From Methanobacteriota archaeon (lineage in GTDB: Archaea > Thermoplasmatota > Poseidoniia > Poseidoniales > Poseidoniaceae), in contig PAOW01000026.1 in assembly GCA_002710015.1 (NCBI GenBank), forward strand, positions 1 to 46,352: a stretch of DNA of 46,352 nucleotides, read 5' to 3'. Every line of letters starts with the position of its first letter. The stretch's first letter is position 1. This document shows, in pieces, positions 1 to 18,104 of this stretch. The notes under the pieces are model-generated. The model was not told the origin of the DNA, made no database searches, and was given only the letters and a program-made list of their open reading frames with translations. A program made the position numbers and the translations under genes.

Positions 1-721
1 CGCCCACATTGATGTCTTTTACCAATACAGTTCCCGAGGAGGTACCATCAGTTTTCCACAACTCTTTTCCATGTGTACCATCGTCTGCAAGGAAGTAGAC
101 TGTGTTGCCAATATGGGCCCAATTGTGGTTGCCGATATGTTCAGAGATATCTAGGTTTGAGTGAAGGATGACAGTGCCCGAGGCAGTACCGTCTGTTTTG
201 CAGAACTTAGTGGTAGAACTCCCGCTACCATCATCGCACTGGTAGTAGAGAGTGTTTCCATGCACGTAATGTGCTCCTTTGTTCCCACCAACTCCGTGTC
301 CGGAACCATTGTTCAAGTCCACGACCATACTTGTGCCTGCGGTAGTACCATCGGTCTTCCACAGTTCTTGCCCGTGTACTCCATCATTGTACTCGAAGTA
401 TACGTAGTTGCCCATTGGTGAATATGGGTTGATTGCTGTACCACCAGTCGTCAGCGCAGATGATGTATTACTGCCATTATAGCCCCCGGAAACAGTTTGG
501 AAGGTGATATCACCCATGAGATCGCCAACCATTAGATCTGCACCTTCCACGCTTGGAGTCAAAGCAGGTGTAGAGCCACCCGTTTCCTTTGATTCAGTAT
601 CTTGGTCTAGGCCAATTGAGAAATCCATGTTATCGGTATATCCTACTTGAGTCATCAGTATCATGATCAAAGAGAGGAAAACTGCTCTGAATCGTCCGTC
701 TTGGCTTACGCTGGCTGCCAT
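1..721 (-). CDS. ELWxxDGT-repeat secreted/surface protein, N-terminal part (runs off the left edge; not in the ORF track)
   Basis: Manual translation from ATG at 721 is open to the window edge: MAASVSQDGRFRAVFLSLIMILMTQVGY... (signal-like hydrophobic stretch), then YFEYNDGVHGQELWKTDGTTAGTSMVVDL, KFCKTDGTASGTV and YFLADDGTHGKELWKTDGTSSGTVLVKDIN. Confidence 0.9.
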   Translation of the reverse strand, partial: MAASVSQDGRFRAVFLSLIMILMTQVGYTDNMDFSIGLDQDTESKETGGSTPALTPSVEGADLMVGDLMGDITFQTVSGGYNGSNTSSALTTGGTAINPYSPMGNYVYFEYNDGVHGQELWKTDGTTAGTSMVVDLNNGSGHGVGGNKGAHYVHGNTLYYQCDDGSGSSTTKFCKTDGTASGTVILHSNLDISEHIGNHNWAHIGNTVYFLADDGTHGKELWKTDGTSSGTVLVKDINVG

Positions 722-756
722 ATCTCTCGCAATTATTTCATTAACTACTTCCTTTC

Positions 757-777
757 CCCTATGATAACAGGGTTTCC
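757..777. promoter_or_regulatory. Imperfect palindrome in the 56-bp divergent intergenic region; candidate HTH_10 operator
   Basis: CCCTAT-GATA-ACAGGG (arms 5/6 complementary) followed by TTTCC, between the ELWxxDGT gene start (721) and the regulator start (778). Confidence 0.35.
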
Positions 778-1431
778 ATGGAATTAAGACAAATGATAAT
801 GACAATCAGCCAATTACAAAGTTCTGGACTACCTGGTGCTGTAATCTATGATTACTTTGACAAAATCACATTTGTCCTTACAGATAAAAGTCCCGAAAAT
901 GGTGTATTCAGAATGCTTGCAAGGCTTGACTTCATGCCAAATATGGAGCCCACTGAAGTGCCGTCTGAATCAGGGATGAAGATTATCAAATTCTATCACC
1001 GGGAAGAAACATCAGGTCTTGCGACTGTTGATTTCCACGGTCCCATTTTGGGGACTTTGATGGATATAGACGGTTGCTGGTTCCACAATCAATCCTACAT
1101 TAGTAATGAAGTCGGAGCTCATTTTACAATAGTAGGAACAAAAAAAGCATTATCCGCTTACAGGAAAAGGATGCTGGCGCTTTTCCCTGAAGATATTGGC
1201 CTTAAGGTATCAAGTAGCATGAGAGCCGATTTTATGATGACTCCATCATTATCAAAGCGCCAGTCTGAGGTTCTCAGTGTTGCAGTACAGATGGGATACT
1301 ATGGCCAGCCAAAGAAGTGTAATCAATCAGATATCGCGGAAGTAATCGGTATCAGTCAAGGCACTGTTGCAGAGCATCTACAACTTGCAGAATCTAACAT
1401 TATGAGTGGCTGGTTCCGTCAAATTAATTGA
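778..1431 (+). CDS. Bat-like (HTH_10) transcriptional regulator, copy 1
   Basis: C-terminal LSKRQSEVLSVAVQMGYYGQPKKCNQSDIAEVIGISQGTVAEHLQLAE matches the HTH_10 pattern (LTxRQ..L..A...GYY..PR......A..LGIS..T..EHL..AE). Confidence 0.9.
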   Translation: MELRQMIMTISQLQSSGLPGAVIYDYFDKITFVLTDKSPENGVFRMLARLDFMPNMEPTEVPSESGMKIIKFYHREETSGLATVDFHGPILGTLMDIDGCWFHNQSYISNEVGAHFTIVGTKKALSAYRKRMLALFPEDIGLKVSSSMRADFMMTPSLSKRQSEVLSVAVQMGYYGQPKKCNQSDIAEVIGISQGTVAEHLQLAESNIMSGWFRQIN

Positions 1432-2733
1432 TCAGCCTTCACGCTCGAAAGTATTCAACTCGCTTTCAAGTGCCTGTGCCTCGAATTCCAAATCTGATAT
1501 TTTTTCACCGGGAATTCCTGGTTTACTCATTTCTTTCTCGAGTTCTTTCAAACGTTTACGAGCATTTTCCCTTTCCGACTGGAGTCTCTGTTCCTCAATC
1601 AACATTTTCTTTCTTGCTTCCTCTTGCCTTTTGGACTTGTCAGCATTTGTAATATCATCTTCTTCAGATTTTATCTCAACTTCAGTTGGGTATGATATTG
1701 TAATTCCTTCAGATATGAAGTTCTCATCAATTGTTTTCAACAACCAATCCCTTGCGATAAATTCCTCATTATAGTCTTCTACCCAAGAGAAAAGCCTGAA
1801 ATTTTTCGTAAAATCGTCAAGCTCTCTAACCAAAACTCTTGGTTCTGGTGATTTTAGACAGTGTGGTGACGAGCGTGCAATCTCTAACAGGGAGAACTTG
1901 ACGTGGTCAATATCCTCATCATAACTCACACATACGTCAATAACAAGAGACTTCCTTTTTGCGTTCCCGTCACCCCCACCCCTAGCATGATTGATTATGT
2001 CTGAATAGACAATTGTGTTATTTGGAATAATTATCAGTCTCTCGTCCCTATCAAGAATCTTTGTTGACAAGATACCAATAGATACAACAGTGCCTAAATT
2101 GTTCTCGATTTCAACTCGGTCACCTACCTCAAATGGCCTATCTACGGCTAATAGGAATGAGTTAGCAATGTTGCTAACAGTTTCTTTCATTGCGATTCCA
2201 AGAATAAGGGATACTAGTGCAAGTGATGCTAGTATTCCAAACAGGTCGATGTCTAACTCTAACAAAGCGAAGTAAGATCCCAAGAAATAGACAGCTGCCC
2301 TAGTACAGAATACGAGAAATGGATTTCCTCCTGATACGGTTACTGCATCTTTATTTTCGAAGAATTCCAGTATGACTGGCATGAGATATTTGACGGATAC
2401 ACTGGTGATTGAAGTTGCAATCAATATGTATGATGCTCCAAAGTATGGTTGCAATTTATTGTAATCCACGTCATTTTCAATCAACCACATAGAAGAGAGG
2501 TGAGCTCCAGCAGCAATAATGAATATGTTCAATCTAATCGAAAGTGGTCCAAGAAGTAAATCATCCCATCCAGCAGAACTACCTTTGACAAAATCTTTCC
2601 ATGGATTAATCAATGCAATCCTTGCACCAAATAGAACCATTGCAATACCGATTACACATAGAGCAAACCTAACCAGAAAGGGAAGATTATCAAGATAATC
2701 GACTAGGTCAGATATCAATTCCATAGGTTTCAC
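1432..2733 (-). CDS. mscS: Small-conductance mechanosensitive channel (MscS family) with C-terminal coiled-coil extension, copy 1
   Basis: About 5 TM helices; DRPFEVGDRVEI...GTVVSIGILSTKI...IIIPN; VSYDEDID; EPRVLV; about 75-aa charged helical tail. The GTG start overlaps the TGA of the giant gene (GTGA at 2730-2733). Confidence 0.92.
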   Translation of the reverse strand: MKPMELISDLVDYLDNLPFLVRFALCVIGIAMVLFGARIALINPWKDFVKGSSAGWDDLLLGPLSIRLNIFIIAAGAHLSSMWLIENDVDYNKLQPYFGASYILIATSITSVSVKYLMPVILEFFENKDAVTVSGGNPFLVFCTRAAVYFLGSYFALLELDIDLFGILASLALVSLILGIAMKETVSNIANSFLLAVDRPFEVGDRVEIENNLGTVVSIGILSTKILDRDERLIIIPNNTIVYSDIINHARGGGDGNAKRKSLVIDVCVSYDEDIDHVKFSLLEIARSSPHCLKSPEPRVLVRELDDFTKNFRLFSWVEDYNEEFIARDWLLKTIDENFISEGITISYPTEVEIKSEEDDITNADKSKRQEEARKKMLIEEQRLQSERENARKRLKELEKEMSKPGIPGEKISDLEFEAQALESELNTFEREG

Positions 2734-5700
2734 TTTTGCTTGGCGAACTTACGTGCCTGGTTTGCCCACTTGTCACGCTTGATTCTTCCTGGGAAGAATT
2801 CGATTGCGATATTGACTTGCTCTTCAATTTCAGCAGTCATATTTCCAACCTGTTCGAAAGTGTATATTCCCAAAGCATTCAATTTGTCTTCTATGAATGG
2901 TCCAACACCCTTGATTCTTTGCAAGTCATCACTAGCAGTGACAGTTGCAGCTGCTGCAAATCCTCGCTTTAGTCCCTTGACACCAGTCAATGCTGTTGCG
3001 GTCTTTCCAGTCCATGAGATGTTCATTCCACCTTCATCATCCTGAACCCAAGCGGTACCAGTCTCTTCGAAATCAGAAGTGTCACCGATGGAAACTTCAG
3101 TTGCACCTTTCTCTACCGGCTTAGATGCAACACTCCTTGCCGCTACACCCAGAGTAGTGAAATCGATGCTCTTTGCCTTTTCAGAAATTCGTAGGAGTTC
3201 TTCCTCTTTCTTTCTGGCAGCTTCATCCATTTGTTCGAGTTTCTTGCGACGCTCTTCCATCTCCTTTTCCATCTGTTCGAGTCTTTCTTGAGCAGCCTTT
3301 TCTGCAGCAACTCTAGCAGCATCCTCAGCTTCTTCTTTGGCTTTCTTTTCAGCAGCAGCTTTCTCTTCAGCAGCCTTTGCTTTAGCTTCGGCAGCAGCAG
3401 CCTTTTCTTCAGCCAATCTAAGTTTTTCAGCAGCTTCTTCTTCGGCCTTAGCCATCGCTTCAGCAGCTTCTTTCTCGGCCTTTGCTTTAGCCTCCGCAGC
3501 TTCTTCTTCGGCCTTAGCCATCGCTTCAGCAGCTTCTTTCTCGGCCTTTGCTTTCGCTTCAGCCTCTTCTTTAGCCTTCTTTTCAGCAGCCTCTTTCTCG
3601 GCCTTTGCTTTCGCTTCAGCTTCTTCCTTAGCTCTCTTTTCAGCAGCTTCTTTTTCTGCCCTTTCTTTGGCTTCAGCTTCTTCGATTGCCTTTAGTTCAG
3701 CCTTCTCCTCATCTCTTAATTGGGCAGCTCGCATATCCGCAGCAGCTAACTCATCAGCAGCTGGGTCGCCAACTGTAACTTCCCATAGGATGTATACAGA
3801 TGAACTTCCCACTCTGATTTGTCCAGTGTAGACTCCGCTGACATCTTCCTCAGTTACGTTATCATCAAACTCAAGTTGGAATACAATCGATCCTGAACCT
3901 TTCTCGTCAGGGTTGCCTTCGACTATGATTGAATCCATATTGAATCGTCCACGGTTAGTAGCAGCTGCTAGGTCTGTAATTAGCACCAGAGAATCTGGAT
4001 CAAGTTTTGAAATCGTTATGGTTTCCTTGCTTACTGCACTGTCACCAAAGTTTTCAACGCTGACGGATTTGAGAACGAATGGGTCGTTCTTTGTTCCGCT
4101 TCCAGATACAAAGTTAGGTCTGGCTGTGGTGTTTTCAGGCTCAGGCCCATTTTTGTATCCAACCATTACAAGAAGTGAGTCTCCTCTTTCTCTTGCAAGA
4201 TACATTAGTGGCACTAGCAACAGCAATAGAAGCAGAGGTAAGCAAACACAAATCCACCACATAGTGCTAGAGCTGCTGTCACTATCTTTCTTTGAATCAG
4301 ACTTTGCTGACACACATGTTACTCCATCATCCTTGATGTCATCAGGAATACTATCTGCATCCCTTGCGTCAGATCCACACCTATCCTCATCTGCATCAGA
4401 CCATCCATCACCGTCTGTGTCTACTTCTAGAGCGTCACAAGATTCCGAATCGGTAGGGAAGTCAGAATCATCAAGTGGGTCTGTTCCACACTCAACTTCA
4501 TCAGCATCGTGGACACCATCGTTATCATCGTCAAAGTCTTCTTTCAGTCCAGTTGTTGAGCTTCCCGACAATGAGTCTGGGTCACCGTCGCCATCTGTGT
4601 CTCTTGATGCAGAGCGGTCATCAGGGAAATCATCCACGTTGTTTCCTACGCCATCTCCATCGCGGTCATCGTCTTGTGAGTCACAAATCATGTCACCGTC
4701 AGAATCTGTTGGAACGCTTGATGCATCATCTGGGTCAGAACCACATGATTCTTCAGGCCCATCAGCCCAGCCATCAAAGTCTCTGTCAGATTGCAAGGCA
4801 TCACAGACACCGTCATTATCGTCATCTATTGGTATGGACTCAGAATCCAGTGTGTTGGAGTTACACATAATTTCTTCAGTATCAATGTATGAATCATTAT
4901 CGTCATCGTCGTCTATGTAGTTACACAAACTGTCTCCATCAGTATCGATTGGGGTACTAGATGCATCCTGCGGGTCTTCGCCACAGAGGTTTTCCATTTC
5001 ATTGGACCAACCGTCTCCGTCCATGTCGTCATCATATACATCAGGGGTTCCGTCTCCGTCAGTATCTTCTAATACACCTAGAGTTAATTGGAAAGTTCCA
5101 CTCTGTCCAGAGTTTGAGTTGTTCGCCCAAATAGTGTAGAGTGTAGCAGAGCTCAATTCAGTTGGAGTTCCGCTGATAGTTCCAGTCTCACTAGTAGAGC
5201 GACCAGGCATTATTCCATCGAATTCTAGACCAAGTGGTAATGCGGGATAGATTGCCCAACTGGTTATGTCTCCACCCGCTGTTATTGGAACCAGAGGGTC
5301 CATAGCAGAGTTTAGTGACAACTCGACGCTATCCTTTAGATAAATCACAATAATGGCTCTATCGTCACTGTTATCCAATAAATCACAAACCCTGTCTTGA
5401 TCTATGTCGCTTGGGTAATCATTTTCATCCATCTCATCAGTTTGACAGTTTGTCTCATCAGCGTTGGACCAGCCATCACCGTCTTTATCATCGTCATTAA
5501 CATCAGGAATGCCATCTAGATCTGTATCTGTTAGAACAGAAATGGTAACAGTTGCTGTGCCGTAATCTTCGACTCCTGTGGCATTGATTGTATACACAGC
5601 ACTCTGTGATAGAGTGCTTGGTGTTCCCCAGATTGTACCATTGTTGGTTCCAAAGAAGATACCGCTCGGCAATGTAGGTTCAATACTCCACGAAACGATT

Positions 5701-11700: not shown

Positions 11701-14700
11701 TTATCTAAAATAGCACACGAAGTGTCATATCCTGCTGTAACAGTTCTTACAGAGTCGGTGCCGAAACCAATGTCGACCTTCACTAGTGAGGAAGAATTTG
11801 TGCCAGTTGTGCTGGAATTTCCTAATACCATTTTGCTGCTTCCTCCATTGTAACCCATACACCAGATTTCGCCTAAGTGATTGGTTACACATGTGTGTCT
11901 TTCTCCAGCAGCGATTTCCTCAGGCAGTCCTCCCAGATTCAGATTCATTACTTCTGGCGAATCTACAACTCCACCGCTCTCGATTCTAAATCCAGTTCGA
12001 ATTTGGATGTCGTCAACTGCGACATAATCTCCCATAGCATCATTTGCGGATGATCCATCCTTGATGAACGACCATCGCAAAGTATGAATTCCCGAGCTGA
12101 CGTTTACGGTAGTTGTAGACCAGTTTGTCATCTGCCCTTTGGAAGAGTTTACCTCTACTCCATCAATTGAGAATGATAGCCTGTCATTACAGTTGCTCAG
12201 GGTTGGACATGTGTCGGTCTTGTAATCAAAGGATACGGTTCCATCAGTGAACATTCTGGTTATTGAGAATCCAATATCAGACGATGAGGAATGTCCGCTT
12301 GATTTGAATGAATTGCTACCAGATGAAGCGTCTGTGGTATCAATTGCCCACTGAGATCCAAATTGACCCACAGTACCTTCTAGAGTCCAATCAGAACTGA
12401 TCGTTGATGCTTCAAAGTCGTCATCATAACCGGCTGTTGTATCTTGAACATAATATTCTCCAGTTTGAGAATCTTCACCATCTCCCCAACAATAGATTTG
12501 GCTAGTTGTTGTCGTTACACAGTTGTGATTTGCACCGACTGCTAAGTCAGCTGCAATGTGATTATTAGGTAGAGTTAGAAGGGTTGGATTTTCAGAAGAA
12601 GAAGTCGAACCAATGCCTATTTGCCCTTTGTTGTTTCTCCCCCAACACAATATCTCGCCTGCAGCAGATAGAGCACAAGCGTGGTTCTCCCCAGCGTCTA
12701 TGTCTACAGCTTCAAAGCCAGTAGGCCAAGATATTCCACTGTTTGAACCACCCAATTTGTCGTAGTTGTTATCTCCCCAGCAGTAAATATCTCCGCCATC
12801 TTGAATTGCACATGCGAAATCCATTCCTTGAGTCAGAACACTTGAATCTCCGACAGAAGCTATGTTGTTGATAGTGTCCATGGAATCACAGCGACCATCC
12901 TCATCGAAATCACTCGGGATAGATGAAGAAGACATACGGTCTGTTCCACAAGACAACTCTTGCATTCCAGTCCAACCATCTCCATCAGCATCTACATACA
13001 AACCAGCACCTGCAATTGCAGGATTGTTTACTGCCCATAGTTCACCAGCGCTGACAAGGTGAAGAGAGGTGTAAATGTATCCAGCAGAGTTAATCATCAT
13101 GCCAAACGAATCAGCAGCACCAGGCCATGCTGATATCGCATCACCATCCCATTGACCATTATCTCGAGACATTAAGGTCGATCCGTTTGTGTTGTGAGTA
13201 AACAGAATCCAAGGTGTTCCATCAGCATCAACCTGAATTAAGGCTTGGCTAGTTGTGTTGTTCGAAACCAATTCAGTGCTCCATGAAGAAGAAGCATCAC
13301 AGTTAATTGAACACGATGAATAGTATACCGAAGAAGTTGCGTGGTTGATTGAACTGACATGCAGTGAGCCATCTGGGGCTGCATCAATGCTTACTCGCAT
13401 ATTGACTGCGGATGATGTTTGAGATGTATGAACAGAAATCTGTGCTATGTTATTGCTCTCATCGAAGTAGTATGTTCCCGACTGGTTTACATAAACTCCG
13501 TGAACATTATCTTGCATGTCCATGGTAGAATCCATATCTTTGAGCGATTGTTCAATTGGTGTAGAGCTTACCTCTGACCATGAACTGACTGTAATACAGT
13601 TACCTGAACATTGATAATTTCGCAGGTTGAGTTTGCCAGAATACAAATGAAGGACATCATTTGAATCGATCGTCAAAGAGAAATCTTCCAGGGCATACAG
13701 TCCAGTCAGAATTTGTTCACTCCAAATACCATTTACCTTTGTTGTGTATGTAATTCGATTAGCACCGTTATCCCTCATGTGAACAATGTGTGGGTTGCCC
13801 TCAGAATCTAATACAACATCAACGTCGACAAGGTTGGAATCACTGCCTAGAGTTTCAACTGACCACATTCCGTTGTCATACGCTGCAAATTTCAAGTTTC
13901 CATTTCCTGAATCAAAGTATGCGATGGCAGGGCATCCAGTGGTTGGGATTTCGCCCATTGAAATCAAATCACCAGTGTCGCTAGAATCGGAGTCGAGTCT
14001 CCTGTCAAGTTCATTCCTTTGCTCAGGAACTGCTAGCACATCGCATGAATTATCCTTGACTTCTTCATCAAGTTCTAGAGATAATTCGGTTGTAAAAGGT
14101 AAATCAGTCTGACCATCTCCACGGTCTTCAGTATCTCCATATCCGAGTTGACCGATTCCATTATCACCCCAACAAACAATATCATTGTAACCATTACTCA
14201 TTATCACACAAGTTGTCCCAGCGCCAACCTCTATGTCGTTTACATTGTATGCGAAGTGGTTACTCGAGGAGGTCAATCGAACATGAGGTAGGTTGTTGCC
14301 CATTCCGTTAGTAGATCCCGGACCGGTTCCGCGATTATCTTGACTTCCGTATCCAAGTCTTCCATCCGCACCGTTACCCCAACATTGAACCGTTTTGTAG
14401 TATGAGCTGTATCGGACGATAGCACAAACATGATCTTCTCCAGCATCGATTGATATCACCTCGTAGTTCAGATCAGCATAACTAATCGAAGACATAGAGC
14501 CTCCAGAACCGTCTCCCACATTTATTGTGGATTCAATACCCAATTGTCCGAAATCATTCAATCCCCAACAGAATGCTCTGTCAGTCCCGCTGTCGTCAAC
14601 GACAGCACAAGTGAACCCATCACCTGCTGTGATTGCGCTAGAAGTTCCAGGTAGGTCTAGGAAGTCCAAGTTGTCTCCCATCTCTCCTGCACTGTCTCCG

Positions 14701-15527
14701 ATGTCTGTTGTTGAATCCAATCCAAGTTGCCCGTTATCGTTGCCACCCCAGCAGGATACACTGTTGTTGTCCCAAACAACACAGGTGTGGTCCCAGCCCA
14801 GAGCCATGCTATCGATAGTGCGGCCGGTAGGCACGCTCGTGACTGCGAAGTTGCTTCCAATTTCGCTTGGTGCGTCTCCTCTATGAGCAGTGTCGCCAAG
14901 ACCAAGTTGTCCCTTGGAGTTGTCTCCCCAGCAGATTAGGTCATTGTTGTCCATGACTGCACATGTGTGACTCTTTCCAGCTTCAATCATTGTAGCATGT
15001 CGGCCAGTAGGGAATTGCAAGAACGGCAACGTGTCGCCAGTCTCCAAGTATCCATCACCAAAGCCGCCATCATTTGTTGAGTATCCCAGTCCCAATACTG
15101 ATGATTCTCCCCAGCACTTGACTGAGCCGTTGGTGAATAGTGCACAAGAATGCTTGTCGCCCATGACAATCTTGTCTACCGATGCATTGGTTCCTAGGTT
15201 AACAAACGGCAAGTCAGTACCAGTTTCATCACTACTGTCTCCGATGTTTTGTGTGTTACCAAGGCCCAGTTGACCATCACTTCCATCACCCCAGCACTTG
15301 ATGTTGCCTGATGCTCCGATTGCACAGGCCGAATCCAATCCAAGAGCGAGGGAGTCTGCATTACCAGTTTGCCCCGCACCCATCGCTACATTTTCGTTAA
15401 GTTCTTCTTCAATAGGTGGCGAGGAATCGCTTGATTTGAAGTTCTGATCAGCAAACGGAGTCATGGGCATTAGAACCATGATCAGCGTCAGCATAAAGGC
15501 CGATGTGCGTAGTGAAACTGGGCGCAT
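2730..15527 (-). CDS. Giant (4265 aa) single-pass surface protein: RCC1-like repeats, beta-propeller-like domains, Ca-binding TSP3-like repeats, putative Ig (He_PIG-like) domains, TM anchor, cytoplasmic Ala/Glu/Lys coiled coil and C-terminal helix-hairpin-helix
   Basis: N-terminal signal peptide; many G..H(T/S)CA...CWG.N..GQLG units; DxDGDGW..xExxC...DxDxDxxCD units; SPALPxGLS...G.I.GTP Ig units; TM WWICVCLPLLLLLLLVPLMYLA near 4195-4260; terminal DDLQRIKGVGPFIEDKLNALGIYTF. Confidence 0.9.
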   Translation of the reverse strand: MRPVSLRTSAFMLTLIMVLMPMTPFADQNFKSSDSSPPIEEELNENVAMGAGQTGNADSLALGLDSACAIGASGNIKCWGDGSDGQLGLGNTQNIGDSSDETGTDLPFVNLGTNASVDKIVMGDKHSCALFTNGSVKCWGESSVLGLGYSTNDGGFGDGYLETGDTLPFLQFPTGRHATMIEAGKSHTCAVMDNNDLICWGDNSKGQLGLGDTAHRGDAPSEIGSNFAVTSVPTGRTIDSMALGWDHTCVVWDNNSVSCWGGNDNGQLGLDSTTDIGDSAGEMGDNLDFLDLPGTSSAITAGDGFTCAVVDDSGTDRAFCWGLNDFGQLGIESTINVGDGSGGSMSSISYADLNYEVISIDAGEDHVCAIVRYSSYYKTVQCWGNGADGRLGYGSQDNRGTGPGSTNGMGNNLPHVRLTSSSNHFAYNVNDIEVGAGTTCVIMSNGYNDIVCWGDNGIGQLGYGDTEDRGDGQTDLPFTTELSLELDEEVKDNSCDVLAVPEQRNELDRRLDSDSSDTGDLISMGEIPTTGCPAIAYFDSGNGNLKFAAYDNGMWSVETLGSDSNLVDVDVVLDSEGNPHIVHMRDNGANRITYTTKVNGIWSEQILTGLYALEDFSLTIDSNDVLHLYSGKLNLRNYQCSGNCITVSSWSEVSSTPIEQSLKDMDSTMDMQDNVHGVYVNQSGTYYFDESNNIAQISVHTSQTSSAVNMRVSIDAAPDGSLHVSSINHATSSVYYSSCSINCDASSSWSTELVSNNTTSQALIQVDADGTPWILFTHNTNGSTLMSRDNGQWDGDAISAWPGAADSFGMMINSAGYIYTSLHLVSAGELWAVNNPAIAGAGLYVDADGDGWTGMQELSCGTDRMSSSSIPSDFDEDGRCDSMDTINNIASVGDSSVLTQGMDFACAIQDGGDIYCWGDNNYDKLGGSNSGISWPTGFEAVDIDAGENHACALSAAGEILCWGRNNKGQIGIGSTSSSENPTLLTLPNNHIAADLAVGANHNCVTTTTSQIYCWGDGEDSQTGEYYVQDTTAGYDDDFEASTISSDWTLEGTVGQFGSQWAIDTTDASSGSNSFKSSGHSSSSDIGFSITRMFTDGTVSFDYKTDTCPTLSNCNDRLSFSIDGVEVNSSKGQMTNWSTTTVNVSSGIHTLRWSFIKDGSSANDAMGDYVAVDDIQIRTGFRIESGGVVDSPEVMNLNLGGLPEEIAAGERHTCVTNHLGEIWCMGYNGGSSKMVLGNSSTTGTNSSSLVKVDIGFGTDSVRTVTAGYDTSCAILDNSTQAVCWGQRSDWMDTAGNTRSGELLLGSSSPSNSGTEVDLGSAGDRIYSISMGEYHACAVVENSVECWGVEESGSFGQGSSTTAAYSTPQTISVPSGLTAKQIVIEHSTDSTCGVFEDSAGASSVICWGDETAVGYSSSSSVTTLADSPVEDGDGDGISLSETAQTPYDIIDIQSGQGHTCALSRQGLIKCWGWNGVGQLSMPSTSTNLGDDADEMGVNLPYIDLGANVTASQISVGKYHNCAVVQSSVDSSINGKVMCWGQNQQRQSNISSSNNYELTPKIISQFSNDVIKIAAASDVTCALKLSGEIYCMGSNNDRAIGQSWAYNYGYDVATSLDYSTSGKYVDLYASSSNSGAICATSATGAIKCWGDGYLISQTSGSQYVFYDFNGILTSDFSFGADHACLVVSAVTELHDETTRSIGAGDIVCWGSGSYGQTGQGSSSSYGTNNDIQTATSINFNGTLMTDVEASQDHSCSISSSGDVYCWGYGINGRLGYGNTNSLGDNSNELPFQTAVDLEGSAKLIALTDTSTCAVMTDNEVYCWGSGGYGRTGHENTDDTGDQNNEMGVNLAPTDLHMRPTDFDLDGVIDPWDTDDDNDGTLDVDDDFRLDPCAVLDTDDDGMPDSIYAACTTSLIEDLDDDNDNWNDTDEEACVSNSKDSTSIPLDLDGDGTCDYTDTDDDGDGWSDADEQACERKEWNTRILTSSYTWGDYGLSPDYPTGIIFAPNSHGYEYEVTGLSNSQKHMRVFGFTDTNIESGSTTGSNMIGTISGANNYQAGFDYEAYGQGAYVVDDEKLRFLEFGSPHTTLYSNPTLVYTFDTNHEGQHHDLSVATDGTVYMTTHDEIVRISPGGITSEIAYPTGVSTSTLNAEYKQIAVDSNLDIHLLAYHESATRIYTWIYDTSSGTWNSGIDAGSGTVSDVGPGRSSFTVDSSNQPHMALMKGSGPNDANSFVTYQYYDNSGSNWINRFTDQTPSGNEGVSLELDSSDNVHIAWIDYTNKSAYHTKLSSSSNAQTTTQVISHSNGNGFNQYHSSLDITIAAGDDPWISWSPYSASYNQYNRLAYYGSAIDYSRDSTVYPSDYDGDGTCDMLETATLDYGTNDIIFEMEMDISYMPEYPAMMPTGVAISPSLPAGLTLDATTGEISGRVTSTDFSGSIYTITTTSGVEAWSKNLTIKSTMENPLYTGYQSLFTGSYSDQTSAKTAFASNGEIVTLERYSSTSSIQVDGIAAGGNHDSNDIVLSMREPAGNDYLWAKSIRGNGFYIEDVDVDDNGNIYALFQATATSSDPVEFNFDGVTIDNNGKETVILAKWDYYGNLQWAINTESSGTSSTDSASISREANDESSEMDLDKSTGDVVIIAKGKTANDDLRFGGMQVGPFGTCLTTLQPWVAKVNTNGQVQWTSVGKSNPTNCRATYEHQVVLHHDGSVTAAGHVSASTSQWDYDFGSSSATYSGGNYAGRASSWIAHADSSGNWLWAENVTTERSNIGQSYEHYFTMDKFSDDTLFFAYVNDREYCTDLEFAGSSSSSAPTSSNRYCLHIATMNHTSSDVISLETRIGWDANTESYKSDSIYSAVDSNDIAHVLIDTHSIYGHDLRTIAFDKDLNLAYDVISTYWSTSHYTTDFGLDNSDSIYFTGYHGSKFMHMTASLLSKCGSGNINCVGVDSWAPGQTSGQTGYQHQLYRFWGDFDHEINYNSPSEGTSTTFKMIGKYGGSIATYSLNNSLGVTNSAALPCGLSFNTGTGYISGTPQNGCTDTANETYTITVNHGSTSYAWDRSQSLEVTFGISPALPVVSYNPADTTQSYTRGVAITPIAPTGITNSANLHHFTTYPPLPAGLSVNSTGHITGTPTANQSTAIFKVKSCNSWNVCSAGVPFTITVNEPAPVISYAESEYEFFKDVPITPVVPTSTGGVPSSWDISPALPTGLSLRGDGAIVGIPFVDSPATNYTIWANNTGGSGTTVLEITINGTGIFINYPYNTAELAQYSPMMALYPSTSGAAIVSWSIEPTLPSGIFFGTNNGTIWGTPSTLSQSAVYTINATGVEDYGTATVTISVLTDTDLDGIPDVNDDDKDGDGWSNADETNCQTDEMDENDYPSDIDQDRVCDLLDNSDDRAIIVIYLKDSVELSLNSAMDPLVPITAGGDITSWAIYPALPLGLEFDGIMPGRSTSETGTISGTPTELSSATLYTIWANNSNSGQSGTFQLTLGVLEDTDGDGTPDVYDDDMDGDGWSNEMENLCGEDPQDASSTPIDTDGDSLCNYIDDDDDNDSYIDTEEIMCNSNTLDSESIPIDDDNDGVCDALQSDRDFDGWADGPEESCGSDPDDASSVPTDSDGDMICDSQDDDRDGDGVGNNVDDFPDDRSASRDTDGDGDPDSLSGSSTTGLKEDFDDDNDGVHDADEVECGTDPLDDSDFPTDSESCDALEVDTDGDGWSDADEDRCGSDARDADSIPDDIKDDGVTCVSAKSDSKKDSDSSSSTMWWICVCLPLLLLLLLVPLMYLARERGDSLLVMVGYKNGPEPENTTARPNFVSGSGTKNDPFVLKSVSVENFGDSAVSKETITISKLDPDSLVLITDLAAATNRGRFNMDSIIVEGNPDEKGSGSIVFQLEFDDNVTEEDVSGVYTGQIRVGSSSVYILWEVTVGDPAADELAAADMRAAQLRDEEKAELKAIEEAEAKERAEKEAAEKRAKEEAEAKAKAEKEAAEKKAKEEAEAKAKAEKEAAEAMAKAEEEAAEAKAKAEKEAAEAMAKAEEEAAEKLRLAEEKAAAAEAKAKAAEEKAAAEKKAKEEAEDAARVAAEKAAQERLEQMEKEMEERRKKLEQMDEAARKKEEELLRISEKAKSIDFTTLGVAARSVASKPVEKGATEVSIGDTSDFEETGTAWVQDDEGGMNISWTGKTATALTGVKGLKRGFAAAATVTASDDLQRIKGVGPFIEDKLNALGIYTFEQVGNMTAEIEEQVNIAIEFFPGRIKRDKWANQARKFAKQK
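3430..3620. repeat. Intragenic tandem repeats (66-bp and 57-bp periods) encoding the AEAKAKAEKEAAE coiled coil
   Basis: 59 bp identical at 3430-3488 and 3496-3554 (period 66). The 29-mer tctttctcggcctttgctttcgcttcagc occurs at 3535 and 3592 (period 57). Confidence 0.85.
4330..5060 (-). repeat. Membrane-proximal array of Asp-rich, Cys-containing thrombospondin type 3-like calcium-binding repeats (protein-level)
   Basis: Repeated units such as DGDGWSNEMENLCGEDPQDASSTPIDTDGDSLCN and DGWADGPEESCGSDPDDASSVPTDSDGDMICD. Confidence 0.8.
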
Positions 15528-15558
15528 GTCTCACGCGTGGGCGAGTGCGCTCATTAGG

Positions 15559-15586
15559 TTTAAGCCCAATCATGATAGGTTTTTCC
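15559..15586 (-). promoter_or_regulatory. Candidate promoter (TTAAA box) with an adjacent upstream palindrome (possible HTH_10 operator) for the giant protein gene
   Basis: Minus strand reads GGAAAAACCTATCATGATTGGGCTTAAACC...ATG(15527). CCTATCATGATTGG is a 12/14 palindrome directly upstream of a TATA-like CTTAAA about 32-37 nt before the start. Confidence 0.4.
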
Positions 15587-15588
15587 TA

Positions 15589-16278
15589 TTATTTTCCAAT
15601 TGAATTGATTATCTTTGATTCGGCCGATTGCAGGTGCTCACTAACCGTTGCTTGCTTGATATTCAAAGCAGCCGCAATCTCTCGCTGAGTGCATCCTCTG
15701 GGAAGACTGTAATATCCCATTTCTATCGCTTTGTCAAGAACGATTCTTTGTTTGTGTGGCAGGTAATCATTGAACTCAGGATTGTGCATAGATTCAGCTC
15801 CAAGTTTAACAAAAAATCCATTCCCAACAAGGTCAGAAAATCGTTCACGAACTCTAGTCAATCCTGCCTTAGTTCCTCTGATAGTTAGTGTAAAACCATT
15901 CTGGCCAAGCATAGTTGGATTAACCCACCATGCTTCATTATCCTCACAGAACATCATAGCAATCGGGCCACTAAGATGCACTTTAGCCAATGCAGAGTTT
16001 TTAGTGATTGATTTTATTTCCAAAATTTCCATTGCTTCGTGCTTTTTATTCAGAACCTTTCGGTCATTAAATTCCAGTTTGACGTAACACAATAGACCAT
16101 CAGGCCTTTTTTCGATGAGGGTTATGAATTCACTTAGCAAAAACGAGTTCGCTAGTTTAGAACCAGAAAGGGAAGAACCAGCTTGTAAACTCATTTCGAC
16201 TTGCATGTATCGTAGATCGAGATTGCTTTCAACTGCAAGTCTGTCACTCACGTGATCACTGCCTTCAGTCGTCGCCAC
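15589..16278 (-). CDS. Bat-like (HTH_10) transcriptional regulator, copy 2
   Basis: LPHKQRIVLDKAIEMGYYSLPRGCTQREIAAALNIKQATVSEHLQSAESKII. The N-terminal LDLRYMQVEM and GPI motifs parallel MELRQMIMTI and GPI of copy 1. The true start may be the GTG at 16251. Confidence 0.88.
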   Translation of the reverse strand: MATTEGSDHVSDRLAVESNLDLRYMQVEMSLQAGSSLSGSKLANSFLLSEFITLIEKRPDGLLCYVKLEFNDRKVLNKKHEAMEILEIKSITKNSALAKVHLSGPIAMMFCEDNEAWWVNPTMLGQNGFTLTIRGTKAGLTRVRERFSDLVGNGFFVKLGAESMHNPEFNDYLPHKQRIVLDKAIEMGYYSLPRGCTQREIAAALNIKQATVSEHLQSAESKIINSIGK

Positions 16279-17569
16279 CGGCTTCGAACATACTCAACAA
16301 ACTGTTGAGTTCTCTCAGGTCTTCCTCAAGTAGATTACGTGTCTTCTTGTCTAAGTCTGGGTCTGCAAGTTTTTCATTTATGATTTCGATTTCTTCCTTA
16401 GCCGCAGCCCGTTCTTTGTTGAGTTGCTTGTCTTCCTTGACCATTTGCATTCGGGCCTTTCTAATGCTTACATTCTTCCTAGTTTTGTTGAATGCCGCAC
16501 TAGCCTTACCTGAAATTTCAACAGAGGTTGGGAATGGAATTTCGATACCTTCGGATTTGAACCTTTCATCTATGTTTTTCAATAACCAATCACGCGCTAC
16601 ATACTCGTCAGAGTAATCTTCGACCCAGCCATACATCCTGAAGATTTTAGCAAAGTCTCCTAACTCGATTAACAAGACTCTTGGTTCTGGCTTCTTTATG
16701 ACATATGGACAATCCCTCATTAGTTGAAGAGTAGTATACTTCACATGTGAAATATCCTCATCATAAGACACACCAATGTCCTGGACTAGAGAGATTCTCC
16801 TTCCAACTCCGTCTCCTCCACCACGTGCGTGGTTTATGACGGTGGAATTAACTAAGCTGTTGTTAGGAATCACGACTAAGTTTTCTTCATGTGTTAGTAT
16901 CTTTGTGGAAAGTATTCCCACCGAGACTACTGATCCCATTTTACCCTCAACTTCTATCCTATCTCCAACCTCGAATGGTTGGTCTAGTGCTAGCATGAAT
17001 GAATTCACAATGTTTCCTAAAGTCTGTTGCATTGCTAAACCTATGATAAGGGAAAATACCGCTAAGGATGCTAGAACACCGAATAACTCGATTCCAAGCT
17101 CGGACAATGCGAGGTATAGGCCACCAAACCAAACCGCTGCACGGAATATGAAAATTATGAGCGAGTTACTACCCGAGACGGTGACACTTGAGGGGTCTGA
17201 GAATTTGTCCATAATTACTGGAACCATTATCATTAACGATACGCTCAAAATTGAAGACGAGATGATTATGTATGTAGCATCGAAGAAAGGTGTCATCGAT
17301 TTTGCAAAACTGTCATCTGATCCTAGGACCCAATTCATTGTGAATTGAATACCTAGTAGGAATGTGAATATGTATGTCCTTTTTGAGACGGGAGTATACA
17401 ATTTATCGTCCCAACTAGCTTCTGTTTTACGAACGAAGTCGAGAACGACTTTTTTCATGAATAGCCTAACGATTCCCAGTACAATTAGAGTGGAGACAAT
17501 ACCTACAATCCATTGTGCCCAAGCATCCAAATCATTCAGCCAGTCGATGGCGTTCCCAACCTGAGACAT
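16265..17569 (-). CDS. mscS: Small-conductance mechanosensitive channel (MscS family) with C-terminal coiled-coil extension, copy 2
   Basis: DQPFEVGDRIEVEG..GSVVSVGILSTKI..VVIPN; NHARGGGDG; VSYDEDI; EGIEIPFP. Clear paralog of 1432..2733. Confidence 0.92.
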   Translation of the reverse strand: MSQVGNAIDWLNDLDAWAQWIVGIVSTLIVLGIVRLFMKKVVLDFVRKTEASWDDKLYTPVSKRTYIFTFLLGIQFTMNWVLGSDDSFAKSMTPFFDATYIIISSSILSVSLMIMVPVIMDKFSDPSSVTVSGSNSLIIFIFRAAVWFGGLYLALSELGIELFGVLASLAVFSLIIGLAMQQTLGNIVNSFMLALDQPFEVGDRIEVEGKMGSVVSVGILSTKILTHEENLVVIPNNSLVNSTVINHARGGGDGVGRRISLVQDIGVSYDEDISHVKYTTLQLMRDCPYVIKKPEPRVLLIELGDFAKIFRMYGWVEDYSDEYVARDWLLKNIDERFKSEGIEIPFPTSVEISGKASAAFNKTRKNVSIRKARMQMVKEDKQLNKERAAAKEEIEIINEKLADPDLDKKTRNLLEEDLRELNSLLSMFEAGGDD

Positions 17570-17714
17570 GGACGGGCGGGCACATAACTCTAATGAAAGG
17601 TTTCCCTATCAAAGTTAATCCGTACTAAGTGTTGAATTAATGAGTCGGGTTATGATAATACACGCATTTAGATTAGGAAAATAATCCTTGATAAATAGTT
17701 GAACTTTAGGTTAT

Positions 17715-18104
17715 ATCGCGGGCCGTAACTTTAGTGGCGGAGTAATTGCTGTCGCGATAGCCTTGCTTATGCTGGCAGCAATTCCCAACAATTATGTCAC
17801 CAACATGGAGATTTCTGCTGGTAACTCTCAAAAAGAATCCAGTATAATTTCTAACCCAACAGTTTCACCAAGCTCAACAACCATCCGTCTAGCAAATAAT
17901 TCTTTGATGAGCAATGTTACGTTTTCATATTCCACATCTTCAAGCGGACAAATTATTCCTTCAGATAATATCTCCCTAGTCCATGATATTAGGAGTGGAG
18001 GAGGTTCTAGTTTACCCGATGCCTTCGTTAGTCTAGGAAACGAGTTGCTGTTTGCCGCTAATGACGGGATAGTTGGCGAAGAATTGTGGAAATCGGACGA
18101 TTAG
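17715..18104 (+). pseudogene. Truncated ELWxxDGT-repeat surface protein remnant
   Basis: The frame reads (I)AGRNFSGGVIAVAIALLMLAAIP...NPTVSPS...LMSNVTF...LVHDIRSGGGSSLP...LGNELLFAANDGIVGEELWKSDD*. It stops inside the first ELWKSDG motif. The signal-like segment starts at ATC 17715 and has no ATG ahead of it. Confidence 0.7.

What the first reader, a model, noticed from the sequence alone, without database searches (positions are those of the whole stretch)
1..18104. Candidate surface-contact/tension sensing system: two MscS, two HTH_10 regulators and giant adhesin-like proteins
Seen: mscS2 > HTH2 > giant protein > mscS1 run on the minus strand with overlaps or a gap of about 60 bp. HTH1 abuts mscS1 stop-to-stop and is divergent from a second (ELWxxDGT) surface-protein gene. 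A third, decayed ELWxxD gene is divergent from mscS2. Each channel neighbours a regulator and a surface gene, and the giant gene's stop overlaps the mscS1 start (GTGA). Established: MscS proteins respond to membrane tension, HTH_10 proteins are archaeal activators, and MGII archaea are often particle-associated. Inference: a module in which adhesin attachment is coupled to channel gating and adhesin expression. I know of no description of this combination.
Basis: partly seen in the sequence, partly recalled or inferred. Interest (0 to 1): 0.85.

Follow-up and report, generated by a model that had tools for sequence, protein, structure and literature searches.

The report
Channel, regulator, giant surface-protein gene module
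In abundant marine planktonic archaea, genes for tension-gated membrane channels, small DNA-binding regulators and enormous cell-surface proteins stay side by side and share a DNA control motif, which suggests joint regulation; that surface contact opens the channels remains untested.

Summary
Window 1-18104 holds ELWxxDGT gene (cut by the contig end) <> HTH1 >< mscS1 < giant (4265 aa) < HTH2 < mscS2 <> ELW remnant, with the stated overlaps.

The linkage is conserved well beyond this genome. In Poseidoniaceae, MscS genes lie directly after a giant gene (4 genera) or ahead of an HTH_10 gene plus a large surface-protein gene (4 genera). In the sister family Thalassarchaeaceae, 23 of the 30 best MscS loci have such a partner within 1.5 kb. 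Other flanking genes are not shared between genera.

A new result is a 16-bp palindrome, ACCNNTCATGANNGGT. It occurs 28 times in 917 kb of fetched loci, against 0-3 for five control palindromes. By my reading, 27 of the 28 sit just upstream of mscS, HTH or giant starts, including window 15565-15580.

Best reading: a co-regulated module. An HTH_10 regulator with a tandem ferredoxin-like sensor domain controls the giant surface protein and ordinary-looking MscS channels.

No description was found in the searched literature.

The parts
2..805 (-). 5' part of an ELWxxDGT-repeat surface-protein gene. It is cut by the contig end and is divergent from HTH1. The likely true start is the Met at residue 29 of the listed ORF (about base 721; inferred).
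   Evidence: TIGR04534, 125.9 bits against a cut-off of 65.
778..1431 (+). HTH1, a 217-aa HTH_10 regulator. It is a paralog of HTH2 (31% identity).
1432..2733 (-). mscS1, a 433-aa MscS-family channel. Its GTG start overlaps the giant's stop by 4 bp.
   Evidence: The same 4-bp overlap is seen in G088 and G031.
2730..15527 (-). Giant surface protein of 4265 aa. It has an N-terminal hydrophobic leader and an ectodomain with RCC1-like propellers, He_PIG Ig-like domains and Asp-rich repeats.
   Evidence: Full-length orthologs at 35-39% identity occur in genera g5 and g7.
4194..4262 (-). Single transmembrane anchor of the giant protein, placed at residues 3756-3778.
   Evidence: Hydropathy scan, which flags about residues 3752-3780.
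2733..4193 (-). Cytoplasmic tail of the giant protein. In order: a beta-rich post-TM domain, a roughly 170-aa Ala/Glu/Lys-rich stretch that looks like coiled coil (read by eye), a linker, and a C-terminal helix-hairpin-helix-type domain in the last ~75 aa (2733-2960).
   Evidence: sequence. One search gives only weak HhH Pfam hits. One search matches the C-terminal domain of the NuoE, S2, L21 and PhaH models (E 2.5e-17 to 2.9e-09). One search finds the tail in 83 of 121 family genomes, on several large ORFs per genome.
15565..15580 (.). Palindrome CCCAATCATGATAGGT on the + strand, 1 mismatch to ACCNNTCATGANNGGT. It lies 38 nt upstream of the giant's ATG and is followed by a TTAAAC element at about -30. 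It is a candidate operator.
15589..16278 (-). HTH2, a 229-aa HTH_10 regulator. Residues 19-163 form a tandem ferredoxin-like N-terminal domain and the C-terminus is a sigma-region-4/LuxR-like HTH.
   Evidence: One search gives a model with pLDDT 86.5. One search gives 5m86_A at Z 10.0 and sigma-4 chains at Z 8-9.
16265..17569 (-). mscS2, a 434-aa MscS-family channel. It belongs to the clade that is followed by an HTH_10 gene.
17586..17601 (.). Degenerate copy of the palindrome (2 mismatches), 17 nt upstream of the mscS2 ATG. Relatives carry better copies at the same place.
17763..18104 (+). Truncated remnant (113 aa) of an ELWxxDGT surface-protein gene, divergent from mscS2.

Best explanation
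This is a conserved, co-regulated gene module of Poseidoniales (Marine Group II archaea). It has three parts: (a) canonical-looking MscS-family channels, (b) small HTH_10 transcription factors, and (c) giant membrane-anchored surface proteins with a conserved cytoplasmic tail.

In the window the genes probably form two transcription units, mscS2-HTH2 and giant-mscS1. Each is preceded by a copy of the palindrome ACCNNTCATGANNGGT.

The most likely mechanism is as follows. The HTH2-type protein binds this palindrome as a dimer. Its tandem ferredoxin-like N-terminal domain receives a cytoplasmic signal. It thereby sets transcription of the giant surface protein together with the channels. The channels themselves work as ordinary tension-gated valves gated through the lipid bilayer. 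Their number is thus matched to the amount of giant anchored surface protein.

Shown here: the gene families, the junctions, order-wide linkage in several gene orders, and the shared motif at the gene starts.

Inferred: co-transcription, the HTH protein as the binder of the palindrome, the ligand-sensing role of its N-terminal domain, the channel activity, and why channels and surface protein are expressed together.
For: Families and junctions.

Linkage in Poseidoniaceae (121 genomes sampled):
- MscS is found in 104 of 121 genomes.
- Giant followed directly by mscS occurs in genera g1, g3, g5 and g7.
- mscS > HTH > large surface-protein gene (tail-bearing giant or ELW-type) occurs in g1, g9, g11 and g12.
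- HTH <> mscS (> giant) occurs in g12.
- mscS > surface protein without an HTH occurs in g2 and g10.
- 60 of 125 MscS places have an HTH or a tail-bearing gene within 3 kb. This is a lower bound, because the lists were truncated and contigs are short.
- 52 of 91 HTH places and 29 of 46 tail-bearing ORFs of 1000 aa or more have a module partner within 3 kb.

Linkage in Thalassarchaeaceae, 30 best loci: 14 giant-tail > mscS, 5 mscS > HTH, 4 mscS > giant, 7 none. The full trio occurs in G151.

Control: in 16 neighbourhoods of about 20 kb from different genera, nearly only MscS, HTH_10 and large surface proteins are shared. The few other ORFs shared between loci were not identified.

HTH paralogs also flank tail-bearing giants with no MscS nearby (L063-L067, L071, L072). 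This fits a role as the giants' regulators.

Motif:
- The 11-mer ACCTWTCATKA occurs 21 times in 917 kb. For 200 letter-shuffled versions the mean is 2.4 and the maximum 19, and none reaches 21.
- The palindrome with at most 1 mismatch occurs 28 times, against 0, 1, 2, 1 and 3 for five control palindromes.
- I placed the sites by hand against the ORF tables and the contexts. 27 of 28 lie within roughly 0-55 nt upstream of an mscS, HTH or giant/surface-gene start. They come from 20 genomes in three families.
- No site with at most 1 mismatch occurs in the 5 loci fetched as giant > mscS without an HTH (L044, L046, L057-L059).

HTH2 fold: a sigma-4-like HTH plus a tandem ferredoxin-like domain.
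Against: - No expression or binding data exist. The RNA-library contigs only show that parts of the giant gene occur in 4 runs of 1 study.
- The binder of the palindrome is not identified.
- In the window's own genome the palindrome is not enriched genome-wide at 2 or fewer mismatches (79 hits against 33-78 for controls). The 11-mer has 10 hits against 2 for the reversed control, and 8 of the 10 lie outside the module.
- The window's mscS2-upstream copy is degenerate (2 mismatches).
- Some lineages show no partner within the fetched flank: g4 (several kb in 2 loci, 1.5 kb in the others), g8 in the one locus fetched, and g24 within 1.5 kb.
- The closest relative, G093, has a 562-bp internal deletion of HTH2.
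- Each gene order follows the MscS clades. The number of independent events is therefore small, and related genomes inflate the counts.
- The genomes are incomplete MAGs, and I called ORFs crudely by taking the longest ORF.
Confidence: 0.6

Rival explanations
1. Passive synteny. MscS is a housekeeping osmotic safety valve. It happens to border a variable surface-protein island, and the HTH_10 genes regulate only the giants. There is no functional tie between channel and surface protein.
For: - The channels look canonical: the profile aligns to E. coli MscS residues 14-286 at E 3e-28.
- Most genomes have one main copy.
- Each gene order is clade-specific, so few rearrangement events are needed.
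- Lineages g4, g8 and g24 keep MscS without a partner in the fetched flank.
- HTH paralogs flank giants with no MscS nearby.
Against: - Housekeeping flanks are not conserved between genera, while MscS-giant/HTH adjacency is.
- The same families are linked in at least four different gene orders, in two families.
- The palindrome sits upstream of mscS starts as well as giant and HTH starts (11 of the 28 sites by my reading).
- The 4-bp stop/start overlap of giant and mscS1 is kept in G088 and G031.
Confidence: 0.2
2. Tethered mechanotransduction. Pulling on the giant surface protein is passed through its membrane anchor and cytoplasmic coiled-coil tail to the MscS cytoplasmic domain or C-terminal helix. 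This gates the channel, and the resulting solute change is read by the HTH_10 sensor domain, which adjusts adhesin expression.
For: - Order-wide adjacency of the giant's tail-encoding 3' end to mscS.
- Both proteins have conserved cytoplasmic extensions. The MscS C-terminal ~75 aa keep invariant residues across clades. The giant's tail is conserved at 50-96% identity.
- The HTH N-terminal domain has a ligand-sensor-like fold.
- A shared operator ties expression together.
Against: - No result bears on a physical contact.
- In many genomes mscS lies at the giant's 5' end, or next to ELW-type proteins instead.
- The same tail domain is on several giants per genome and on a NuoI-like protein. It is therefore not MscS-specific.
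- MscS channels are known to gate through the lipid bilayer alone (established knowledge for E. coli MscS).
Confidence: 0.1
3. MscS as a signalling or ion-supply partner rather than a safety valve. One version: the channel protein acts mainly as a membrane-state sensor that passes information to a cytoplasmic regulator. As I recall, this has been reported for the cyanobacterial MscS homolog PamA, which binds PII. Another version: it handles ions needed by the Asp-rich, probably Ca-binding repeats of the giant.
For: - The mscS > HTH pair is tight (gaps of -14 to about 180 nt) in four Poseidoniaceae genera plus g17.
- There is an extra N-terminal TM helix and a C-terminal extension relative to E. 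coli MscS.
Against: - The closest relative carries an internal deletion of HTH2 while keeping mscS2 and the giant.
- The TSP3 repeat match is below its cut-off.
Confidence: 0.07

Closest known systems
E. coli MscS / YnaI-type small-conductance mechanosensitive channels (PF00924 + PF21082; e.g. PDB 2oau, 6rld, 5y4o)
   Same: The profile of the Poseidoniales channels aligns over E. coli MscS residues 14-286 (E 3e-28 to 1e-27). This covers TM1-TM3, the beta domain and the alpha-beta domain.
   Different: There are about 77 extra N-terminal residues with one more hydrophobic helix, and a conserved C-terminal extension of about 75 aa that looks helical. The genes are embedded in a module with an HTH_10 regulator and giant surface-protein genes. 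I know of no such module for bacterial MscS (recalled; searches found none).
HTH_10 (PF04967) regulators of Halobacteria, such as the bacterio-opsin activator Bat
   Same: A C-terminal HTH_10 domain. They lie next to the genes they presumably control.
   Different: No GAF or PAS domain was detected. The N-terminal domain is a tandem ferredoxin-like fold whose best match is Thermoplasma Ta1207 (5m86_A, Z 10.0, 140 aligned residues). The family is largely confined to Poseidoniaceae: 60 of 79 genomes, against 5 of 79 in Thalassarchaeaceae.
Regulated giant adhesin systems of bacteria, e.g. the LapA adhesin with LapD/LapG (recalled from memory; not searched or tested here)
   Same: A very large repetitive surface protein whose surface display is set by a cytoplasmic signal.
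   Different: Unrelated proteins and mechanism. Here the giant has its own C-terminal TM anchor and cytoplasmic tail. Control appears to be transcriptional, through an HTH_10 protein. A channel gene is part of the unit.
ELWxxDGT repeat proteins (TIGR04534)
   Same: The two flanking surface-protein genes (2..805 and the remnant at 17763..18104) carry this repeat.
   Different: The family is defined by a repeat only and has no known function. Linkage to HTH_10 and MscS is not part of its definition.
C-terminal helix-hairpin-helix-type domain of alphaproteobacterial NuoE, S2, L21 and phasin PhaH (NCBIfam PRK12373, PRK12311, PRK12278, NF045508)
   Same: The last ~75-95 aa of the giant's tail match the C-terminal part of these models at E 2.5e-17 to 2.9e-09.
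   Different: Here the domain ends giant membrane-anchored surface proteins, sometimes in tandem copies. In genus g4 it also ends a NuoI-like ferredoxin. Its function is unknown in every setting.

Membership tests
MscS family (small-conductance mechanosensitive channel) | Pore-lining TM3 plus beta domain (PF00924) | tested here: met
   mscS1 65.3 bits and mscS2 67.4 bits against a cut-off of 20.2.
MscS family (small-conductance mechanosensitive channel) | C-terminal alpha-beta domain (PF21082) and colinearity with solved MscS | tested here: met
   54.5 and 39 bits against a cut-off of 21; the profile aligns to E. coli MscS chains over residues 14-286.
MscS family (small-conductance mechanosensitive channel) | Heptameric channel opened by membrane tension | not testable with these tools
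   This needs patch clamp or a hypo-osmotic shock rescue assay.
HTH_10 transcription regulators (PF04967) | C-terminal HTH_10 DNA-binding domain | tested here: met
   HTH1 56.2 bits and HTH2 59 bits against a cut-off of 23.1; sigma-region-4/LuxR-like fold at Z 8-9.
Bat-type activators (GAF/PAS + HTH_10) | N-terminal GAF or PAS sensor domains | tested here: not met
   One search finds no such Pfam domain. Searches show the N-terminal domain as a tandem ferredoxin-like fold.
ELWxxDGT repeat proteins (TIGR04534) | ELWxxDGT repeats above the model cut-off | tested here: met
   the 2..805 product scores 125.9 bits against a cut-off of 65. The remnant at 17763..18104 scores only 39 bits (one partial repeat).
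RCC1-like repeat / He_PIG surface proteins | RCC1-like beta-propeller repeats and He_PIG Ig-like domains | tested here: met
   WD40_RLD 416.8 bits (cut-off 150), RCC1_2 268.6 bits, He_PIG 93.7 bits.
Thrombospondin type 3-like Ca-binding repeat proteins (TSP3_bac) | TSP3 repeat above the cut-off | tested here: inconclusive
   18.6 bits against a cut-off of 25. Asp-rich DxDxDG-like runs are visible in the sequence.
Adhesin (functional class) | Demonstrated binding to a surface or ligand | not testable with these tools
   This is inferred only from size, the leader, repeat domains and the membrane anchor.
Operon / regulon under one operator | A shared cis-element at the starts of the member genes, conserved across genomes | tested here: met
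   28 palindrome sites against 0-3 for controls, with 27 of 28 at module gene starts by my reading.
Operon / regulon under one operator | Co-transcription, and binding of the regulator to the element | not testable with these tools
   Only assembled RNA contigs were available.

The most novel reading that the evidence does not exclude
The module is a prokaryotic tether-type mechanosensory device. A giant surface protein that grips particles passes force through its membrane anchor and cytoplasmic coiled-coil/HhH tail to a dedicated MscS channel. The channel's solute flux is read by the ferredoxin-like sensor domain of the HTH_10 factor. That factor then acts through the ACCNNTCATGANNGGT operator to adjust production of the adhesin and the channel. 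The result would be a closed attachment-sensing loop in the most abundant planktonic archaea.
Probability: 0.1. Interest if true: 0.9.

Novelty: new variant of a known kind. Interest (0 to 1): 0.62.

Why it matters
Poseidoniales are the most abundant archaea of the surface ocean and have no cultured representative (abstract of PMC6461757, seen). How they attach to particles and build their surface is open. In the passages of that paper returned, adhesion was discussed through flagella, thrombospondin and flotillin genes. The terms MscS, mechanosens- and HTH did not occur in it.

An order-wide module would give three concrete, testable handles:
- a candidate regulator-operator pair for the giant surface proteins;
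- a reason to examine MscS channels in the context of surface architecture;
- marker genes for comparing particle-attached and free-living metatranscriptomes.

If the channels prove to be functionally tied to the giant proteins, that would be a use of MscS-family proteins not described in the literature I could search.

Tried and rejected
1. Complex prediction of the mscS2 cytoplasmic part (residues 185-434, alignment A2) with HTH2 (residues 19-229, alignment A1) gave no verdict: score 0.00 against a mark of 0.32, and the controls were not run. This is no evidence either way.

2. RNA. Four metatranscriptome runs of one study hold 19-24% of the sampled words. When laid, their contigs (95-99% identical) cover many parts of the giant gene. 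They give little or no cover over HTH1, mscS1, HTH2 and mscS2. Because these are assembled contigs, missing cover and depth say nothing about expression or co-transcription. The table of pieces was cut, so I could not see whether any contig bridges 2730-2733 or 15527-15589.

3. A possible fusion of the giant tail with MscS in genus g21 ('open frame' of about 900 aa) is not real. L083 has a stop at 1420-1422 and mscS starts at 1456.

4. Genome-wide regulon. In the window's own genome the palindrome with 2 or fewer mismatches is no more frequent than control palindromes (79 against 33-78). Most such hits lie inside ORFs. I could not define further regulon members.

5. No palindrome or inverted repeat was found in the HTH1/ELW divergent spacer at 690-800, and no match to the HTH2-type palindrome there. 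The HTH1 operator, if any, is unknown.

6. The long 26-nt pattern only re-found the giant-upstream site on both strands.

7. Sequence search of the HTH family against solved structures gave 0 hits. A paper search for Ta1207 gave 0 papers, so nothing on the function of the best fold match could be read. Foldseek's top hit (DapE, TM 0.27) was judged a partial ferredoxin-like match only.

8. Pfam gave nothing above cut-off for the giant's post-TM domain (DUF4352 at E 0.026) or for its C-terminal domain.

Supplementary files of papers were not consulted. The supplementary tables of PMC6461757 may list MscS or HTH genes that I could not see.

10. The composition profile shows no atypical GC over the module, so I did not pursue a foreign-island reading.

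Full report
**What is in the window.** The window is the first 46,352 bases of contig C26 of a 1.70-Mb, 82%-complete genome.
- an ELWxxDGT-repeat gene at 2..805 (-), cut by the contig end;
- HTH1 at 778..1431 (+);
- mscS1 at 1432..2733 (-);
- a 4265-aa gene at 2730..15527 (-);
- HTH2 at 15589..16278 (-);
- mscS2 at 16265..17569 (-);
- a 113-aa ELW-type ORF at 17763..18104 (+).

Pfam confirms HTH_10 in both regulators and the two MscS domains in both channels. In the giant it confirms RCC1-like and He_PIG domains. NCBIfam confirms the ELWxxDGT repeat. The channel paralogs are 46% identical and the regulators 31%.

The junctions are as stated. The giant's stop and the mscS1 start overlap as GTGA. 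mscS2 and HTH2 overlap by 14 nt. The gap from HTH2 to the giant is 61 bp. HTH1 and mscS1 abut stop to stop.

The 113-aa ORF is a truncated remnant. Relative G109 has an intact 1237-aa ELWxxDGT gene at the same divergent position, and only its residues 44-128 find a counterpart here.

**The parts.** The channel profile aligns with solved E. coli MscS over residues 14-286 (E about 1e-27 to 3e-28). Relative to that channel there is one extra N-terminal hydrophobic helix and a conserved C-terminal extension of about 75 residues.

HTH2 was modelled from a 19-sequence alignment at mean pLDDT 86.5. Its C-terminus superposes on sigma-factor region 4 and LuxR-type domains (Z about 8-9). Residues 19-163 form a tandem ferredoxin-like domain. 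The best match over the whole of it is Thermoplasma protein Ta1207 (5m86_A: Z 10.0, rmsd 3.5, 140 aligned residues). Single halves match ACT, NikR and PII-like domains at Z about 8-9. At these Z values this is a fold-level resemblance only.

The giant has a hydrophobic leader, a 3750-residue ectodomain, one strongly hydrophobic stretch (about residues 3752-3780, anchor placed at 3756-3778) and a 487-residue tail. The tail ends in a small helix-hairpin-helix-type domain. That domain matches the C-terminal part of the NCBIfam models for alphaproteobacterial NuoE, S2, L21 and phasin PhaH.

**Taxon.** Source names of HTH2 homologs are 'Candidatus Poseidoniaceae archaeon' at 75% identity and 'Candidatus Thalassarchaeaceae archaeon' at 57%. 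The window's family (f1) is therefore Poseidoniaceae, and the sister family (f3) is Thalassarchaeaceae.

**Is the linkage conserved?** In 121 sampled genomes of the family:
- MscS homologs (E <= 1e-30) occur in 104;
- the giant's last 140 residues occur in 83, on several ORFs of 1000-6850 aa per genome;
- HTH2 homologs occur in 103.

I combined the listed coordinates. Of 125 MscS places, 40 have an HTH homolog within 3 kb, 28 have a tail-bearing gene, 8 have both and 60 have either. Of 91 HTH places, 52 have an MscS or a tail-bearing gene within 3 kb. Of 46 tail-bearing ORFs of 1000 aa or more, 29 have an MscS or an HTH within 3 kb. My rough chance expectation is 1-3%. These are lower bounds, since the lists were truncated and contigs are short. 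They also count related genomes that are not independent.

Reading about 20-kb regions shows four recurrent gene orders:
- giant > mscS, with the channel start at or just after the giant's stop, in genera g1 (mscS1 clade), g3, g5 and g7;
- mscS > HTH > large surface-protein gene (a tail-bearing giant or an ELW-type protein) in g1 (mscS2 clade), g9, g11 and g12;
- HTH <> mscS (> giant) in g12;
- mscS > surface protein without an HTH in g2 and g10.

HTH paralogs also sit beside tail-bearing giants that have no MscS nearby (L063-L067, L071, L072).

In Thalassarchaeaceae, MscS is found in 47 of 81 sampled genomes. Of the 30 best loci, 14 have the giant tail directly upstream, 5 have an HTH downstream, 4 have a giant's 5' end downstream and 7 have none within 1.5 kb. 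One genome, G151, carries the full mscS > HTH > giant trio.

As a control, I compared 16 neighbourhoods from different genera. Nearly the only genes they share are MscS, HTH_10 and large surface proteins. The few other shared ORFs were not identified.

An MscS tree of 52 sequences shows the mscS > HTH type as one well-supported clade. It is sister to the giant > mscS clade of g7. mscS1 and its orthologs form a separate clade. Gene orders are thus inherited within clades, and the association has survived several rearrangements.

**A shared cis-element.** Aligning the regions upstream of mscS2 orthologs exposed a conserved block. Its core, ACCTWTCATKA, occurs twice in the window with at most 1 mismatch to a 16-nt version. 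One copy is upstream of mscS2 and one upstream of the giant. Only 1 of 100 shuffles gave two or more matches.

In 917 kb of fetched loci the 11-mer occurs 21 times. For 200 letter-shuffled versions the mean is 2.4 and the maximum 19, and none reaches 21. The contexts show a 16-bp palindrome, ACCNNTCATGANNGGT. With at most 1 mismatch it occurs 28 times, against 0, 1, 2, 1 and 3 for five control palindromes.

I placed each site by hand against the ORF tables. 27 of 28 lie at module gene starts:
- 11 are upstream of mscS;
- 7 are at or just before HTH starts;
- 9 are about 35-45 nt upstream of giant or other surface-gene starts, often followed by a TTAAAC-like element.

The sites come from 20 genomes of three families. 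None occurs in the five fetched giant > mscS loci that lack an HTH.

In the window the sites are 15565-15580 (1 mismatch, 38 nt before the giant's ATG) and 17586-17601 (2 mismatches, 17 nt before the mscS2 ATG).

In the window's own genome the 11-mer has 10 hits against 2 for the reversed control. The loose palindrome is not enriched there. Any regulon therefore seems small.

**Interpretation.** The simplest account is a co-regulated module. An HTH2-type factor binds the palindrome and controls two units, mscS2-HTH2 and giant-mscS1. Its ferredoxin-like domain receives a cytoplasmic input. The channels act as ordinary tension valves whose expression is tied to that of a giant anchored surface protein. 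I put this at about 0.6.

Passive synteny (about 0.2) is weakened by the variable flanks, by the several gene orders, and by the operator copies at mscS starts.

The tail domain is not specific to MscS-linked giants. It also ends a NuoI-like ferredoxin next to a putative NuoH gene in genus g4.

**Points against the module reading.**
- Lineages g4, g8 and g24 show no partner in the fetched flank.
- The closest relative has an internal 562-bp deletion of HTH2.
- There are no expression or binding data.

RNA-library contigs of four runs from one study cover parts of the giant gene at 95-99% identity. This shows presence in RNA libraries only.

**Novelty.** Full-text searches returned no paper describing this combination:
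- 'Marine Group II' + mechanosensitive: 7 papers, none about this by their titles and abstract starts;
- Poseidoniales + MscS: 1 paper, on ammonia oxidisers;
- HTH_10 + mechanosensitive: 0 papers.

The passages returned from the Poseidoniales comparative paper (PMC6461757) treat adhesion through flagella, thrombospondin and flotillin. The terms MscS, mechanosens- and HTH do not occur in it. Its supplements were not visible to me.

The components belong to known families. The conserved module and its operator appear to be undescribed.

Noticed in passing
L111 2116-3468 (-), genome G015 of genus g4. About 452-aa open frames with the same tail match occur in other g4 and g11 genomes.: The giant's C-terminal HhH-type tail domain also ends a 450-aa protein with Pfam 4Fe-4S ferredoxin matches and a second Cys cluster seen by eye. 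It looks NuoI-like. It lies next to a 502-aa polytopic membrane ORF that resembles NuoH by eye (not scanned). The same small domain therefore decorates a putative respiratory-complex subunit and the giant surface proteins in these archaea, as it does NuoE in alphaproteobacterial models.
   Followed up: partly
L038 (genome G093), matching window 15621-16182: The closest relative has mscS2 at 95% identity. It lacks 562 bp from the middle of HTH2, while mscS2, the giant gene and palindrome-like sequences remain. The regulator is therefore dispensable in that lineage, supplied in trans, or misassembled.
   Followed up: partly
L006 (G074:C37): A genome assigned to genus g12 holds a short contig with an HTH1 ortholog at 94% identity and an mscS1 ortholog at 76%. 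These are far closer to genus g1 than to its own genus. Mis-binning or recent transfer of the module are both possible.
   Followed up: no
window 37864-42759 (+): A second large surface protein of 1631 aa, with subtilase S8, Big_7 and CARDB domains. It has a C-terminal membrane anchor and a Pro-rich tail ending in a CxxC...CxxC zinc-ribbon-like motif. A 763-aa homolog lies directly upstream of MscS in G037 of genus g9.
   Followed up: partly
window 24889-26283 (-): A 464-aa protein that combines an exosome Rrp4/Csl4-type N-terminal region (just below the Pfam cut-off) with two RRM_1 RNA-recognition motifs (118 bits) and a Lys/Arg-rich tail. As far as I recall, RRM domains are uncommon in archaea.
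   Followed up: no
L073-L076 (genus g26, Thalassarchaeaceae): HTH2-like genes at 56-59% identity are as close to HTH2 as orthologs in other Poseidoniaceae genera are. They lie divergent from an RCC1-type giant, with a perfect palindrome between them in L073. The HTH family is otherwise nearly missing from this family (5 of 79 genomes). Transfer of the regulator-giant pair between the two families is possible.
   Followed up: partly
G000 contigs C1, C9, C11, C13, C15, C28, C29: Eight further exact copies of the 11-mer ACCTWTCATKA occur in the window's own genome. Several lie inside or next to ORFs of 900-2000 aa. One (C15:30768) lies 2.4 kb from the third, distant MscS homolog (C15:28036-28347). 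The neighbouring genes were not annotated.
   Followed up: no
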